Source: a virus. From it: 64,000 nucleotides of DNA. Every line of letters begins with the position of its first letter. Within the stretch, counting starts at the first letter, position 1. The notes under the pieces were generated by a model. It was not told the DNA's origin and made no database searches. It saw nothing but the letters and a program-made list of their open reading frames with translations. The stretch lies in IMG/VR virus record IMGVR_UViG_3300026549_001121, positions 1 through 64,000 of that record, one strand, 5' to 3'. A program made the translations under genes and the position numbers. Positions 16,200-19,859 of the stretch are shown piece after piece.

Positions 16200-18167
16200 A
16201 TGGATATGGTTACATTAGCGATTGCGCTAAGTAAAATATAGTAGGTTAAAAAAGAATTAAGAAAAGAAGATTTTAAAATTTAGGTAGAACAAGATCGTTC
16301 TATTTTAAATAGAGCAGGACAAGAAAAAATACTATATTTTCTACCTGCGGAAGATGCAGAAAGTTCCAACGCATATGATGAGTACATATATGTGAATAAT
16401 ACATGGGAATAGGTTGGTTCTACTAAAATTGATTTAAGTAATTATTATCAAAAAAATGAAATTAATGAATTATTAAACTCCAAAGAAGATATAATTACAG
16501 AAGAAGAATTAACAGAAATTGTAACAGGGCTTTATCCACAAGCAACCCCAGAGGAAGTTCGCGATATGGTAGATAATTTATTAGAAAATTATTCTACTAC
16601 AACCGAAGCGATGATTGATTTTATTATTCAACATCAAGATGATCAACCTGGCGCAGAGTATGCGCCTTTACAATCGCCGCATTTTACAGGTATTCCTACT
16701 GCGCCGACCGCCGCACGGGGTACTAGCACAGAACAAATTGCGACAACTGCTTTTGTTTAGGAAGCAATAAAACCAGCAATTATCATTTCCGTAAGTGACC
16801 TGCCTGCGGGAATCAATTTAGTAGTAACTTTAACTTTATAGGACGATGATATGCCGTATTCTGTATCAGCCACAGTTGATGCAAACGGTATTGCAACCAT
16901 GCTTTTGGAATATACAGGTACATATGCAATTACATATAACAATAATAAAATTAAAAGTAGAAAAACTATTGATATTACTGTACCTACCGTATATAATTTA
17001 TCTGCGGTATATCCAGAATTAATTGTTTATACGGTTAATATAGATAAAAACAACAGTAACCCAAAAACCGCTTGCACTTATGCAGATAATGCAGAAAATA
17101 TGGTTAAGGGTTCTGCAGAGTGGGATAATATGCCAATTTTTAAACATATTCGACCCTGTGTGTTTTTAAATGGTGAAGTTAACTATTATTTAGATCCAAA
17201 TGATTGGACAAAAAAATATGGAACAAATGAAACTTCTGTACTAACAGGTGAAGATGGAGATGTAATGATTGAATTTCCTAAATTTGCCTATAAAATAAAA
17301 ACTGTTGATAATATTATTACAGTTTCTGTAACAAATGATGAAAGTGTTGTAGAAAACGATAGTGAATATACATATGATGCTTTTAGTAGATTAACAGAGG
17401 GTGATGTTGATTATTTTTATAAAGGAGCATTTAAAGGCTCGTTAGACAGTAGTGGACAATTACGCTCTATTGTCGGTACTAAGCCAGCCGCAAATAAAAC
17501 AATTGGTTAGTTTAGAACTGCGGCGCAATCAAATGGCGCACACTACCAATAGTCAACATATGCGCAATTAAAAGCATTACAATGCTTATATTTAATAAAA
17601 TATGGTGATAGAAATGGATAGGCAGAAGTTGGTAACGGCGTAGTTAGTGCCAGTGGATCTTATGTATCTGGCTATAATACTACTGATGTTGCTAGTATTG
17701 CACCAGAATTATCAACCTTGGCTTCTGGAATGACCTTTGGAACTACTGCTAATAATACAACTCATATGAGATTATTTGGAATAGAAGATTTTTGGGGTTG
17801 CATTTGGGAATGGGTAGATGGTTTAACTATAGATGGAGAAAGAAATGTTATCACCTCTTGGAACAGTTTTTCTGGAGAGGGAGTTGAATCTACGTCGGTT
17901 ACTACTCCTAGTGGCTTTACATCTAATGCAAGTGGATGGATAAGAGATGTAATTGGAAATAATGCGGCTGGATTTATGCCAAATAATTTCTCAGGTGGAT
18001 CAAGTAGTACCTACTGGTCGGATTATGGCTATCTCTATGCTTCTTGCGTGCTCCGTTTCGGTGGCGCTTGGGGTAATGGTGGTTTGGCCGGTCCTTTCTA
18101 TCTTTATGCGTACGATGGCGCTTCGGATGCGCACGCGGCTGTCGGCGCGCGCTTGTCTTTCGTTTAA
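16200..18167 (+). CDS. tail fibre protein, DGR target gene (about 8 in-frame TAG)
   Basis: Joins track ORFs 16566-, 16851-, 17718- (all frame 0). N-terminus …YDEYIYVNNTWE(Q)VG… and …APLQSPHFTGIPTAPTAARGTSTEQIATTAFV… classic fibre N-terminus; GC-rich variable 3' end. Confidence 0.75.
18021..18167 (+). repeat. DGR variable region (VR)
   Basis: 147-bp match to 18291-18437; every mismatch checked lies at a template adenine. Confidence 0.8.
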
Positions 18168-18290
18168 TATAAAAAGTTTAATTTAATAATATATATGGGT
18201 TATTATTTATGTTGCGTATACATATTCAAATTGTTGTTTTTACTGATTGGAAAAATATTCATGTTTGACTAAAAAATAAATTTTTAGTCA

Positions 18291-18437
18291 GATAATGGCA
18301 ATCTCTATACTTCTTACGTACTCAATTTCAGTAGCAATTGGAATAATAGTGATTAAGCCAGTCCTTTCAATCTTAATGCGAACAATGGCACTTCGAATAC
18401 GAACACGAATATCAGCACGCACTTGTCTTGTTTTCTT
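18291..18437 (+). repeat. DGR template region (TR)
   Basis: A-rich near-copy of the target gene 3' end, non-coding (frame has a TAA). Confidence 0.8.
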
Positions 18438-18647
18438 TTATTCTTTTTGTTTAACATTGTTTATAAATATAAATAATAACCCTGTCACTTGACAAAACAT
18501 CAGGCTTATAATTTAGTATTTATTAGTAGGAACATCACACCGAAAATCAATATTTAATTAGGTTAAAATGAATTAAAAATAGTATTGTAGTTAATGAATT
18601 TTAATTTTATCAAATAAAAAGAAAATAAGTTAATTAAGGAGAAATAT

Positions 18648-19859
18648 ATGCCAAAAAGAGCAAATAATATTTATCCTTTAATATATGAGGTAGACAACAT
18701 TAAGCAAGCGCATCAGAAAGCACGAAAAGATAAATCTCATTATGATGCGGTTAAAAAAACAGATGAAATTTTAGATGAGCGAGCGCAAGAAATTAGTGAA
18801 ATGCTTAAAAATCATACTTATAAAATAGGGGAATATAAAACAAGTAGATATTCAGACAGAGGTAAAGAAAGAATTTTATATAAATTACCTTATTATCCTG
18901 ATAGAATTATTTAGTGGGCAATTATGTTGCAAATTGAACCATATTTTAAAAAAGTATTTACACGATTTACTTGCGCTTCTCTACCTCAGCGTGGAATTCA
19001 TTAGGCAAGTAAACTATTAACTGAATATTTATATAAAAATCGACATAAAAAATTATATTGTTTAAAAATAGATATAAAAAAATTTTATCCAAATATTAAT
19101 CGTTCAATTTTAAAACAGTTGTTGCGAAAAATATTCAAAGATAAAGATTTATTATATGAATTAGATAATATTATTGATAGTTTTGATAATAATGATATTC
19201 AGAAATTAAATCTTTCTCCAGAAGAGGAGGAAGTTTACTGTCAGCCTAATAGAGGGGTTCCAGTAGGGTCATATTTATCTTAGTACTTAGCAAATTTTTA
19301 TCTTGCTTATTTTGACCATTGGTTAAAAGAAGAATGTCATTGTGATTTTGTAATAAGATATATGGATGATTTGGTTATTTTCTCTGAATCTAAAGATTTT
19401 TTACATAATTTATTGTGCGCAATAAAAATTTATTTAAAAACTCAATTAGATTTAAAACTTAAAAATACTTATAGTATTTTCCCAGTAGAACGAGGAATAG
19501 ATTTTGTGGGTTTTAGACATTTTTCAACTTATAAACTATTGCGGCATTCTACTTATAAAAATTTTAAAAAGAATTTTTAGGCTATTGCGGCTAAGGGAAT
19601 TAATTTAACAGAAAAAGATTGGTGTTCTATAGTATCAGAATGCGGTTGGCTCGCATGGTGTAATTCTTATAATTTTTATAAGAAATATGTTTTCCCTTTG
19701 TCAGGAACAGTTGGAAGTTATTACTGGATGAATAAACGTGATAAAAAGTTTCAAGAATTTTTAATTTTCTTGAAATATGAAAATAAACATAAACAAAATA
19801 TGAAGATTTATAAATATAAAAAATCTCATAAAAAGATACATAAAAAAGGAGAGTAGTTA
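18648..19859 (+). CDS. DGR reverse transcriptase (3 in-frame TAG)
   Basis: LKIDIKKFYPNI, VGSYLS(TAG)YLANFYL (DGR-RT hallmark I/LGxxxSQxxAN), RYMDDLVIF (YxDD); joins track ORFs 18648- and 19362-. Confidence 0.8.

What the first reader, a model, noticed from the sequence alone, without database searches (positions are those of the whole stretch)
16200..19859. Complete diversity-generating retroelement targeting a tail-fibre C-terminus
The last ~145 nt of the fibre gene (18021-18167) are GC-rich and are repeated 124 bp downstream (18291-18437) as an A-rich non-coding copy. I aligned 14 ten-nt blocks by eye. Essentially every one of the ~38 mismatches sits at a template adenine, for example VR GTGGCGCTTGGGGTAATGG against TR GTAGCAATTGGAATAATAG. 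Only the last 2-3 nt, beyond the mutagenised segment, differ otherwise. Downstream lies a reverse transcriptase with motifs LKIDIKKFYPNI, VGSYLS-Q-YLANFYL and YMDDLVIF. This is the adenine-specific mutagenic-homing signature of a diversity-generating retroelement (DGR). No Avd accessory ORF is visible between VR, TR and RT, and the RT carries three in-frame TAG codons.
Basis: partly seen in the sequence, partly recalled or inferred. Interest (0 to 1): 0.8.

Follow-up and report, generated by a model that had tools for sequence, protein, structure and literature searches.

The report
Phage tail-fibre hypermutation cassette, Avd-less
This is a real and apparently active diversity-generating retroelement that rewrites the tip of a phage tail-fibre gene; it is an ordinary member of a known accessory-protein-free class, sitting in a phage that reads the TAG stop codon as glutamine.

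Summary
A 143-nt repeat (VR 18017-18159, TR 18287-18429) has 34 mismatches, all at template adenines. The reverse transcriptase (18648-19862) is most similar to the Bordetella phage DGR enzyme. It is intact only if TAG is read as Gln, and two family-invariant glutamines, including the Q of the DGR hallmark GxxxSQ, are TAG codons. A suppressor tRNA-CTA lies in the window.

Eight near-identical metagenome loci from other contigs carry a near-invariant TR (one difference). The seven that include the VR, together with the window, show five VR alleles that differ only at TR-adenine positions, so the element is active in nature.

No Avd homologue was detected in the window or beside 17 related cassettes. 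Avd-less cassettes and amber codons in DGR RT genes are both already published.

Additions from this work:
- The TR-RT spacer holds a divergent copy of the orphan Rfam family RT-17 (18474-18570).
- The TR 3' flank can pair with a segment just upstream of the RT start, and this pairing covaries across the clade, which suggests self-priming as in BPP-1.
- The TR carries an in-frame TAA that appears as TAG (Gln) in three VR alleles.
- Adenines at scaffold and synonymous sites are almost always G in the VR. This is unexplained.

Verdict: new member of a known kind, moderate interest.

The parts
16200..18167 (+). Target gene, 655 aa with 9 in-frame TAG (=Gln): tail-fibre / receptor-binding protein with a C-terminal lectin-like variable domain
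   Evidence: Code-15 ORF. phrog_5302 tail protein E 5e-67 plus tail-fibre motifs at aa 136-214. PDB sequence hit 5vf4. AF2 model of homologue P0130 (94% identical over the C-terminal 384 residues) has mean pLDDT 79, about 90 or more over most of the C-terminal two thirds; Foldseek's top hits are TaqVP (E 6e-11) and Mtd.
18017..18159 (+). Variable repeat (VR), the last ~48 codons of the target and ending 8 nt before the stop codon
   Evidence: Five alleles across the window and seven related metagenome loci, differing only at TR-adenine positions: 32 variable nt, 18 variable codons.
18084..18086 (+). VR codon opposite the TR's in-frame TAA. It is TTG (Leu) here and in L004, and TAG (read as Gln) in L001-3, L006 and L008
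18160..18286 (+). VR-TR intergenic stretch, non-coding but nearly invariant between strains; probably the 5' part of the DGR RNA
   Evidence: 0-3 differences in 127 nt, against 6-9% divergence in the target gene. No terminator-like site on the + strand.
18263..18293 (+). Strong A/T-rich hairpin abutting and overlapping the 5' edge of the TR (perfect 10-bp core 18266-18275 / 18281-18290)
   Evidence: I5. Fold -12.4 kcal/mol, z -6.4, but not conserved in the clade (median z 0), so lineage-specific with unknown role.
18287..18429 (+). Template repeat (TR): non-coding, 46 adenines, 13 AAY codons in the VR frame, one in-frame TAA at 18354-18356
   Evidence: Identical to the window in seven of eight related metagenome loci, with 1 nt different in L006.
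18427..18439 (+). TR 3' boundary and flank (CTTGTTTTCTTTT): proposed template arm of a template:primer duplex
   Evidence: Pairs with 18617-18629 (13 bp, one G.U, -12.4 kcal/mol). The equivalent pairing covaries across the clade. The energy-only test for the window is weak, p about 0.06.
18474..18570 (+). Structured spacer RNA, a divergent member of Rfam RF03020 (RT-17 RNA). P1 hairpin is 18483-18486 / 18491-18494, followed by AAAACA, then a long-range P2
   Evidence: Rfam RT-17 scores 20.6 bits, E 0.32, below the gathering score of 40.4. 11 of 16 relatives pass gathering at the same position. The clade model R1 gives 43.7 bits, E 2e-8, the only significant hit in 64 kb, with all 12 pairs standard. 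Covariation in 10 of 12 pairs.
18617..18629 (+). Spacer segment AAAAGAAAATAAG, 7 nt upstream of the RT ribosome-binding site: proposed primer arm
18648..19862 (+). DGR reverse transcriptase, 404 aa, with five in-frame TAG codons and a 60-aa Lys-rich C-terminal tail
   Evidence: RVT_1 E 7e-20. Best PDB hit is bRT 8ub7, E 3e-25. TAG encodes the family-invariant Q89 and Q212. A 100% identical protein, P0001, is present in the public protein database. Tail has 17 K+R and 4 D+E.
29000..29070 (-). Suppressor tRNA (anticodon CTA) needed to translate both the RT and the target
   Evidence: ARAGORN. Rfam tRNA 41.9 bits.

Best explanation
This is a complete, currently active diversity-generating retroelement of the accessory-gene-free 'TR-RT' architecture. 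It sits in a large, tRNA-rich gut or rumen phage that reads TAG as glutamine.

Proposed mechanism:
1. A late transcript runs through the tail-fibre gene into the non-coding TR, the spacer and the RT gene.
2. The RT can be made only when the phage's amber-suppressor tRNA is working.
3. The RT binds the structured RT-17-type RNA in the spacer.
4. The U-rich 3' flank of the TR pairs with an A-rich spacer segment just upstream of the RT start. This positions the RNA to prime its own reverse transcription, as in Bordetella phage BPP-1.
5. The TR is copied into cDNA with misincorporation opposite adenines.
6. The cDNA replaces the VR, rewriting about 18 codons of the lectin-like tip of the receptor-binding protein.

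Shown here: the adenine-specific repeat, the RT family, the recoding, the spacer RNA, the variation between strains, and the lack of a detectable Avd.
Inferred: co-transcription, self-priming through the proposed duplex, restriction of RT synthesis to late infection, and independence from Avd.
For: - The 143-nt VR/TR pair has 34 of 34 mismatches at TR adenines.
- The RT is closest to bRT and has the GxxxSQ motif and YMDD.
- About 65 of 80 homologous RT loci carry their own adenine-specific VR-TR pair immediately upstream, with VR-TR gaps of 27-320 nt in all but two, too short for an avd gene.
- The TR is near-invariant (one difference) across eight related loci from separate metagenome contigs. 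The VR has five alleles, with all 32 variable nucleotides at TR-adenine positions.
- The non-coding stretch 18160-18647 diverges by 1.6% or less, against 6-9% in the target gene.
- Recoding: ORF coverage rises from 34.9 to 50.4 kb when TAG is read through; a tRNA-CTA is present; TAG sits at the invariant Q89 and Q212 of the RT family.
- The target model matches the DGR variable proteins TaqVP and Mtd.
- Spacer RNA.
- TR-flank:spacer pairing: the longest exact complement averages 7.39 nt for cognate pairs and 6.28 nt for non-cognate pairs, Wilcoxon p 7e-7. Block-wise compensatory examples are ATGTCTTA/TAAGACAT, CCTTTGTGC/GCACAAAGG and CCCC/GGGG.
- No Avd: 0 of 46 window ORFs and 0 of 149 ORFs from 17 relatives hit bAvd (PF22296) or PF05635, while the BPP-1 Avd positive control scores E 7e-36.
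Against: - No reads were available, so hypervariability within a single population was not seen. Three samples (L001-L003) share one VR allele, so turnover may be slow.
- The window is 64 kb of a possibly larger genome, so an Avd or other accessory gene could lie elsewhere. Avd proteins are poorly conserved and Pfam could miss one.
- For the window alone, the proposed primer duplex is only marginally better than chance in this A/T-rich sequence (p about 0.06).
- No GC-rich IMH or downstream hairpin like that of BPP-1 is evident at the VR 3' end.
- The TR has an in-frame TAA and about 13 adenines at positions where every VR allele has G. This would make most random cDNAs non-functional unless an unrecognised bias exists.
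Confidence: 0.9

Rival explanations
1. The cassette needs an accessory protein after all. This could be an Avd too divergent for Pfam, a gene outside the 64-kb window, a host factor, or the small conserved ORFs just downstream of the RT (93 aa at 19859-20140 and 67 aa at 20145-20348).
For: In BPP-1, Avd is essential and braces the template:primer duplex (bioRxiv 10.1101/2023.10.23.563531). The 93-aa ORF overlaps the RT stop (ATGA), and homologues follow the RT in L009 and L014. Only part of the genome is visible.
Against: The 93-aa protein is acidic (net -11) whereas Avd is basic. The 67-aa ORF matches phrog_5056, and both ORFs sit within a run of tail-fibre and lysis genes, so their conservation can be explained by phage structural synteny. 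No bAvd or PF05635 hit was found in 195 ORFs, with a working positive control. Wu et al. found no avd anywhere in the genomes of avd-less DGRs (PMC5758913).
Confidence: 0.25
2. This is a fossil DGR: the cassette once diversified the fibre but is now inactive, and the VR differences between strains are inherited.
For: L001-L003 share one allele, and L005 equals the window. 13 TR adenines are the same G in all alleles.
Against: There is not a single non-adenine VR/TR difference, although the rest of the target gene is 6-9% diverged between the same strains. VR differences between strains (15-19 per 143 nt) lie exclusively at TR-adenine positions. The TR, the spacer RNA and the RT are all intact and conserved.
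Confidence: 0.05
3. The RT belongs to a group II intron, a retron or a defence RT, and the repeat is an unrelated duplication. Alternatively, the RT is a pseudogene broken by stop codons.
For: The best NCBIfam hit is the group II RT/maturase model at 105 bits. NCBIfam returned no DGR-specific RT match, and under the standard code the ORF is split into five pieces.
Against: All of these models score far below their cut-offs: 105 against 300, 58 against 200, 44 against 235. bRT is the best solved relative. No group II intron or retron RNA was found by Rfam. TAG falls at invariant Gln positions, a suppressor tRNA is present, and an identical 404-aa product is on record in several metagenomes.
Confidence: 0.01

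Closest known systems
Bordetella phage BPP-1 DGR (mtd-avd-TR-brt), the prototype
   Same: Adenine-specific TR-to-VR transfer into the 3' end of a tail-fibre receptor-binding gene. The RT is the closest solved relative. The variable protein has the same kind of fold (Mtd hits). [quoted passage not shown] The TR 3' end can pair with a spacer segment.
   Different: There is no avd gene between VR and TR or anywhere detectable. The spacer RNA belongs to a different Rfam family: RF03020 RT-17 here, RF03022 Phage_DGR in BPP-1. No GC-rich IMH or hairpin follows the VR. The RT has a 60-aa Lys-rich C-terminal tail and needs amber suppression. TR adenines are mostly in AAT rather than AAC codons.
Architecture A1 (TR-RT, no accessory gene) and avd-less lineage 3 DGRs of Wu et al. 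2018 (PMC5758913)
   Same: Target(VR)-TR-RT order with no accessory gene. That survey also found no avd elsewhere in such genomes and proposed Avd-independent retrohoming.
   Different: I could not place this RT in their tree, so membership of lineage 3 is untested. The link to RT-17 RNA and the TR-flank:spacer pairing are not described in that paper.
[quoted passage not shown]
   Same: Stop-codon-recoded gut phages with tRNA blocks and a suppressor tRNA. Most of their DGRs lack Avd, seven RT genes contain amber codons, the GxxxSQ motif is present, and the target is a tail fibre with a C-terminal C-type lectin domain.
   Different: crAss-like RTs in the phage collection are only 38-39% identical to this one. 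The neighbouring genes here (XhlA, XkdX-like phrog_5056, CBM_5_12) are not obviously crAss-like, but the phage was not classified.
Rfam RF03020 RT-17 RNA (Weinberg et al. 2017, PMC5737381)
   Same: The same P1 hairpin with AAAACA, the same UGGUAG...CGAA core, and the same position immediately upstream of an RT gene. 11 of 16 relatives pass the curated threshold.
   Different: The window copy is A/U-shifted and scores below gathering (20.6 against 40.4 bits), with its helices kept by compensatory changes. Rfam still lists RT-17 without a function; only RT-10 (now Phage_DGR) had been tied to a DGR.
TaqVP, Thermus aquaticus DGR variable protein (PDB 5vf4)
   Same: It is the best sequence match (E 4e-5) and the best fold match (E 6e-11) for the target's C-terminal half. 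The shared C-terminal motif is GG.WGNGG.AG...GAR..FV.
   Different: Only 17-18% identity. The window protein adds a tail-fibre N-terminal region and beta-rich middle domains.

Membership tests
Diversity-generating retroelement (DGR) | TR/VR near-repeat whose differences are confined to template adenines | tested here: met
   34 of 34 mismatches are at TR adenines over 143 nt.
Diversity-generating retroelement (DGR) | Adjacent RT of the DGR clade with the [ILV]GxxxSQ motif and catalytic YxDD | tested here: met
   VGSYLSQ and YMDD are present. The best PDB relative is bRT at E 3e-25, against 1e-12 for group II-like RTs. No formal phylogeny was made.
Diversity-generating retroelement (DGR) | VR at the 3' end of a protein-coding target, with TR adenines at codon positions 1 and 2 (AAY codons) | tested here: met
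   TR adenines by codon position: 24, 19 and 3. There are 11 AAT and 2 AAC codons.
Diversity-generating retroelement (DGR) | Variable region displayed on a C-type-lectin (or Ig) fold | tested here: met
Foldseek's top hits are TaqVP and Mtd, and there is a sequence hit to 5vf4.
Diversity-generating retroelement (DGR) | Evidence of ongoing diversification (VR varies, TR does not) | tested here: met
   Five VR alleles and a near-invariant TR (one difference) across the window and related loci; all 32 variable sites are at TR adenines. Read-level variation was not testable.
Diversity-generating retroelement (DGR) | Avd accessory protein (present in about 74% of DGRs; not universal) | tested here: not met
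   No PF22296 or PF05635 hit in 46 window ORFs or in 149 ORFs from 17 relatives. The BPP-1 Avd control scores E 7e-36.
Diversity-generating retroelement (DGR) | IMH/IMH* pair and a GC-rich inverted repeat downstream of the VR (BPP-1 type) | tested here: inconclusive
   Homology ends 8 nt before the stop codon after an 8-nt adenine-free shared segment. No GC-rich hairpin lies downstream of the VR.
Rfam RF03020 RT-17 RNA | Score at or above Rfam's gathering threshold (40.4 bits) | tested here: not met
   20.6 bits, E 0.32.
Rfam RF03020 RT-17 RNA | Consensus helices and conserved loops, at the same place relative to the RT gene as in relatives that do pass the threshold | tested here: met
   11 of 16 relatives pass gathering. 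[quoted passage not shown]
Rfam RF03022 Phage_DGR RNA (BPP-1 type spacer RNA) | Match to the covariance model | tested here: not met
   No match even at E <= 10 in 17900-18760. The BPP-1 control scores 104.7 bits.
Group II intron RT / retron RT / defence RTs | Curated NCBIfam score cut-off; associated intron or msr/msd RNA | tested here: not met
   Scores are 105 against 300, 44 against 235 and 58 against 200 bits. Rfam finds no intron or retron RNA.
Stop-codon-recoded phage (TAG read as Gln) | Suppressor tRNA, in-frame TAG at conserved Gln positions, and longer ORFs when TAG is read through | tested here: met
   tRNA-CTA at 29000-29070. TAG at the invariant Q89 and Q212 of the RT family. ORF coverage rises from 34.9 to 50.4 kb. 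The identity of the inserted amino acid rests on these alignments only.

The most novel reading that the evidence does not exclude
This clade of phage DGRs may work as a two-part machine: the RT plus an RT-17-type spacer RNA that self-primes through a covarying TR-flank:spacer duplex, with no Avd.

In this recoded phage the system would also be coupled to the genetic code. RT synthesis would be gated by amber suppression, so it would occur late in infection. The DGR also writes TAG codons into the VR, and these are viable only because TAG means Gln.

In addition, TR adenines at scaffold and synonymous sites appear as G in the VR almost without exception. This points to an unrecognised bias: near-deterministic dC insertion in some contexts, G.T repair that makes G persist, or selection for VR/TR divergence.
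Probability: 0.3. Interest if true: 0.6.

Novelty: new member of a known kind. Interest (0 to 1): 0.38.

Why it matters
As a DGR the element is ordinary; thousands are known in gut phages. It is useful as a clean, naturally varying example of the Avd-independent class, whose mechanism has not been studied.

- It gives the orphan Rfam family RT-17 a probable job, as the spacer RNA of an Avd-less DGR clade.
- It offers a directly testable priming duplex: 18427-18439 pairing with 18617-18629.
- It shows hypermutation and stop-codon reassignment interacting in one gene. An invariant RT residue (the Q of the GxxxSQ motif, whose counterpart in bRT contacts the incoming nucleotide) is encoded by TAG, and DGR-written TAG codons occur in the VR.
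- A compact cassette of RT plus about 490 nt of RNA, with no accessory protein, would also interest groups engineering DGR-based mutagenesis tools.

Tried and rejected
- A close-relative search of IMG/VR with the RT protein, and another with an A->N TR pattern, found nothing. Relatives came from the protein database and from a profile scan instead.
- The 93-aa and 67-aa ORFs after the RT were considered as replacement accessory genes. I set them aside as part of the tail-fibre/lysis gene block: the 93-aa protein is acidic, the 67-aa ORF matches phrog_5056, and the same order appears in relatives next to holin and endolysin genes. They are not excluded.
- The Lys-rich C-terminal tail of the RT was considered as an Avd substitute. 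It is absent from the 352-aa relatives, which also lack Avd, so it cannot be the general answer.
- An energy-only test of the TR-flank:spacer duplex was weak. Cognate pairs averaged -10.3 against -9.4 kcal/mol for non-cognate pairs (p 0.016), and the window alone gave p about 0.06. The exact-complement test and the compensatory examples carry the argument.
- The hairpin at the TR 5' edge was tested as a conserved 'stop' element. It is not conserved in the clade.
- Aligning tRNA-CTA with the window's tRNA-Gln(TTG) did not settle the suppressor's identity.
- A simple 3'-neighbour rule for A->G was rejected as the whole explanation, because the second A of AAC codons is retained about half the time.
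- An in-frame stop in the TR is not special to the recoded lineage: 6 of 58 standard-code relatives have one too.
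Full report
**1. The observation**

An ungapped alignment at offset 270 and the repeat finder give the same boundaries: VR 18017-18159 and TR 18287-18429, 143 nt at 76% identity.
- All 34 mismatches lie at TR adenines (24 A->G, 6 A->T, 4 A->C).
- 34 of the 46 TR adenines are changed and no other base differs.
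- 31 of the 34 mismatches fall at codon position 1 or 2 of the target reading frame.
- With A making up 32% of the TR, chance is negligible.
- A TR-derived pattern with A->N, and a scored scan of both strands, find only these two copies in the window.

They also ran 8 nt past the real 3' end of homology, and the count is 34 mismatches rather than about 38.

**2. Genetic code**

Under the standard code both genes are fragmented. Reading TAG through raises the summed length of ORFs of at least 100 aa from 34.9 to 50.4 kb.
- The target becomes a 655-aa ORF (16200-18167, nine TAG codons).
- The RT becomes a 404-aa ORF (18648-19862) with TAG at 18912, 19002, 19281, 19578 and 19854.
- The window carries 32 tRNA genes, including one with anticodon CTA at 29000-29070, plus a tmRNA.
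- In an alignment of 20 RT homologues, Q89 (DRIIQW) and Q212 (GSYLSQ) are invariant, and in the window both are TAG codons. This is the basis for reading TAG as Gln.
- In-frame TAG codons are concentrated in the + strand structural block: 12, 9 and 5 in the three large genes at 12334-19862. Most large - strand genes have none.

**3. The reverse transcriptase**

- Pfam finds RVT_1.
- NCBIfam returned no DGR-specific RT match, and its group II, retron and defence-RT models all score far below their cut-offs.
- Among solved structures the best match is the BPP-1 DGR enzyme bRT (8ub7, E 3e-25). Group II-like RTs score 1e-12 or worse.
The Q187 counterpart in bRT contacts the incoming nucleotide (bioRxiv 10.1101/2023.10.23.563531).
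- A profile scan of IMG/VR returned 80 loci with RTs 40-57% identical. About 65 of them have their own adenine-specific VR/TR pair directly upstream of the RT.

The RT family is therefore a DGR family by function as well as by sequence.

**4. The target**

- The protein matches phrog_5302 'tail protein' (E 5e-67) over aa 243-655, and tail-fibre families over aa 136-214.
- Its C-terminal half hits the Thermus DGR variable protein TaqVP by sequence (5vf4, E 4e-5). The C-terminal motifs align: GGAWGNGGLAG...GARLSFV against GGDWGNGGVAG...GARPAFV.
- An AlphaFold model of the homologue P0130 (94% identical over the C-terminal 384 residues) has pLDDT of about 90 or more over most of the C-terminal two thirds. 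Its best solved-structure matches are TaqVP (E 6e-11), followed among others by Mtd of BPP-1.
- Neighbouring genes are tail-fibre-like and lysis-related.

**5. Activity in nature**

The exact RT protein and its 90% cluster occur on contigs from several ENA and Logan samples.
- Across the eight related loci the TR is identical to the window's except for one base in L006.
- Seven of the eight include the VR. With the window, they show five VR alleles: window = L005; L001 = L002 = L003; L004; L006; L008.
- All 32 variable nucleotides, in 18 codons, are at TR-adenine positions.
- Between the same strains the rest of the target gene differs by 6-9%. Yet the non-coding stretch from the VR stop codon to the RT start (18160-18647) differs by 0-8 nt in 488.

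This is the pattern expected of a working DGR, and of a functional RNA spanning the whole intergenic region. Read-level variation could not be examined.

**6. Avd**

- The VR-TR gap is 127 nt and the TR-RT gap is 218 nt, so nothing fits between the parts.
- Pfam (which holds bAvd PF22296 and PF05635) hits none of 46 small ORFs across the window.
- It also hits none of 149 ORFs within 4 kb of the RT in 17 relatives, while BPP-1 Avd, included as a control, scores E 7e-36.

This is a known situation. Wu et al. found 29% of DGRs in an accessory-free 'TR-RT' architecture, found no avd elsewhere in those genomes, and noted an avd-less lineage (PMC5758913). Amber codons inside DGR RT genes, and mostly Avd-less cassettes, are also described for Zeta crAss-like phages (PMC12386605).

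**7. The spacer RNA**

Aligning the TR-RT spacers of relatives exposed a conserved element: a hairpin YUGCC-NCUU-GGCAA, then AAAACA, then a conserved GURYURGUAG ... CGAA core closed by a long-range helix.
- RNAalifold finds compensatory changes in 10 of 12 pairs.
- Rfam identifies the element as RF03020 'RT-17 RNA'. 11 of 16 relatives pass the gathering score at this position.
- The window copy scores only 20.6 bits.
- A covariance model built from 53 relatives finds a single significant hit in the 64 kb, at 18474-18570 (43.7 bits, E 2e-8), with every pair standard. The window copy is an A/U-shifted version in which G-C pairs have become A-U pairs.
- In BPP-1 the same position holds a different family, RF03022 Phage_DGR, formerly RT-10.
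- Weinberg et al. tied only RT-10 to a DGR and speculated that other RT motifs serve other DGRs (PMC5737381).

The present data support that speculation for RT-17.

**8. A candidate priming duplex**

In BPP-1, the TR 3' end (TR 117-129) pairs with spacer nucleotides 47-56. Spacer A56 primes cDNA synthesis.

In this clade, the sequence at the TR 3' boundary is complementary to a segment at the 3' end of the spacer RNA, just upstream of the RT ribosome-binding site. The pairing changes in step:

| Loci | TR 3' boundary | Spacer segment |
|---|---|---|
| Most loci | AUGUUUUC | GAAAACAU |
| L075 | AUGUCUUA | UAAGACAU |
| L089 | CCUUUGUGC | GCACAAAGG |
| L057 | CCCC | GGGG |
| L076 group | CUUUGUA | UACAAAG |
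| L014 | about 14 bp | about 14 bp |
| Window | 18427-18439 | 18617-18629 (13 bp, one G.U) |

- The longest exact complement averages 7.39 nt in cognate pairs and 6.28 nt in non-cognate pairs (Wilcoxon p 7e-7).
- An energy-only test is weak, and for the window alone p is about 0.06.
- The VR/TR homology ends within this duplex (18429).
- This resembles BPP-1, where cDNA starts inside the TR and VR-TR homology continues past the start site (my recollection of the IMH literature).

I regard self-priming as likely but inferred.

**9. Recoding meets hypermutation**

- The TR has an in-frame TAA (18354-18356). The matching VR codon is TTG in the window and L004, but TAG in L001-3, L006 and L008. 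The database product P0130 has Q there.
- So the DGR writes amber codons into the fibre gene, and they are sense codons only because of the reassignment.
- In-frame TR stops also occur in 6 of 58 standard-code relatives, usually opposite TTG, so the TAA itself is not special.
- Because the RT and the target both need suppression, RT synthesis is presumably confined to the phase when tRNA-CTA is active. This is an inference in line with published ideas on recoded phages; it was not tested here.

**10. An unexplained bias**

13 TR adenines are G in all five alleles, including the third-position sites 18020, 18050 and 18086.

Across 56-58 distinct TR/VR pairs of the clade:
- TR ACN appears as GCN (Ala) in 91-95% of cases.
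- AGY appears as GGY (Gly) in 76-91%.
- CAC appears as CGC in 46 of 47.
- At fourfold-degenerate third positions with A in the TR, the VR has G in 85 of 96 cases and A in only 7.

bRT in E. coli mostly inserts C opposite A outside AAC/AC contexts, but at only about 31% per site (PMC12875486 and its preprint). That accounts for G among the changes. It does not account for the near-absence of retained A at synonymous sites.

The second A of AAC codons is retained about half the time, so a simple neighbour rule fails.

Possible causes:
- a stronger context-dependent bias in this RT clade;
- G.T mismatch repair making G persist;
- selection for VR/TR divergence.

Homologous sites in related loci are not independent, which limits the statistics.

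**11. Verdict**

- The element is a complete, active DGR of the known Avd-less TR-RT kind, in a TAG-recoded phage. It is a new member of a known kind.
- The closest annotated phage RTs are only 38-45% identical.
- The parts that go beyond the literature I could search are the RT-17 assignment, the covarying priming duplex, DGR-written amber codons, and the A-to-G regularity. They are modest and partly inferential, and they set the interest score at about 0.4.

Noticed in passing
window 32309-32913 (-): A full-length ROOL RNA (Rfam RF03087, 338.8 bits, E 2e-77) lies inside the tRNA array.
   Followed up: no
window 28888-45913 (-): The window holds an array of 32 tRNA genes covering most amino acids, plus a tmRNA at 29569-29879 with tag peptide ADYSAYKMAA. 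The suppressor tRNA-CTA (29000-29070) lies about 500 nt from the tmRNA.
   Followed up: partly
window 12334-15015 (+) and 21299-23248 (+): Two large tail-fibre-like proteins flank the DGR. Each carries a protein-tyrosine-phosphatase-like domain (Pfam Y_phosphatase3 on the database copies) with HC(S/G)(A/V)GADRTG motifs. The first has 12 in-frame TAG codons and the second has none.
   Followed up: no
window 12334-20745 (+) versus the - strand genes: In-frame TAG codons are concentrated in the + strand structural block (12, 9 and 5 in the three large genes up to 19862). Most large - strand genes have 0-2. This fits recoding being confined to late genes.
   Followed up: partly
window 18142-19651 versus L001-L003: The TR, spacer and most of the RT gene show 1 difference in about 1,500 nt between strains whose flanking genes differ by 4-8%. 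Even synonymous RT sites are conserved. This suggests either recent exchange of the cassette or unusually fast-evolving flanks.
   Followed up: partly
window 18263-18293 (+): A strong A/T-rich hairpin (-12.4 kcal/mol, z -6.4) overlaps the first bases of the TR. It is present in this lineage only and is not conserved in related DGRs.
   Followed up: yes
window 62154-63347 (-) and 56752-57318 (-), plus an unlocated NUDIX ORF: One gene is phosphoribosyltransferase-like (phrog_448, nicotinamide phosphoribosyl transferase). 56752-57318 looks nicotinamidase-like by eye. The small-ORF scan returned isochorismatase and NUDIX hits without naming the ORFs. Together these may form an NAD salvage set.
   Followed up: no
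window small ORFs (exact members not identified): Pfam hits among 40 small ORFs include a Phage_T7_Gp5_9 RecBCD-inhibitor-like protein, the Lar restriction-alleviation protein, and XhlA. The XhlA hit is probably 23252-23494, next to the fibre genes.
   Followed up: no
window 19683-19862 (RT aa 345-404): The RT has a 60-aa Lys-rich C-terminal extension (17 K+R, 4 D+E) beyond the region that aligns to bRT. It is shared by the roughly 400-420-aa relatives and absent from the 352-aa relatives.
   Followed up: partly
56-58 related TR/VR pairs (L009-L097) and window 18017-18429: TR adenines at scaffold and synonymous positions are G in the VR almost without exception: 85 of 96 at fourfold-degenerate sites, and CAC->CGC in 46 of 47. 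AAY codons, by contrast, show a broad spectrum.
   Followed up: partly
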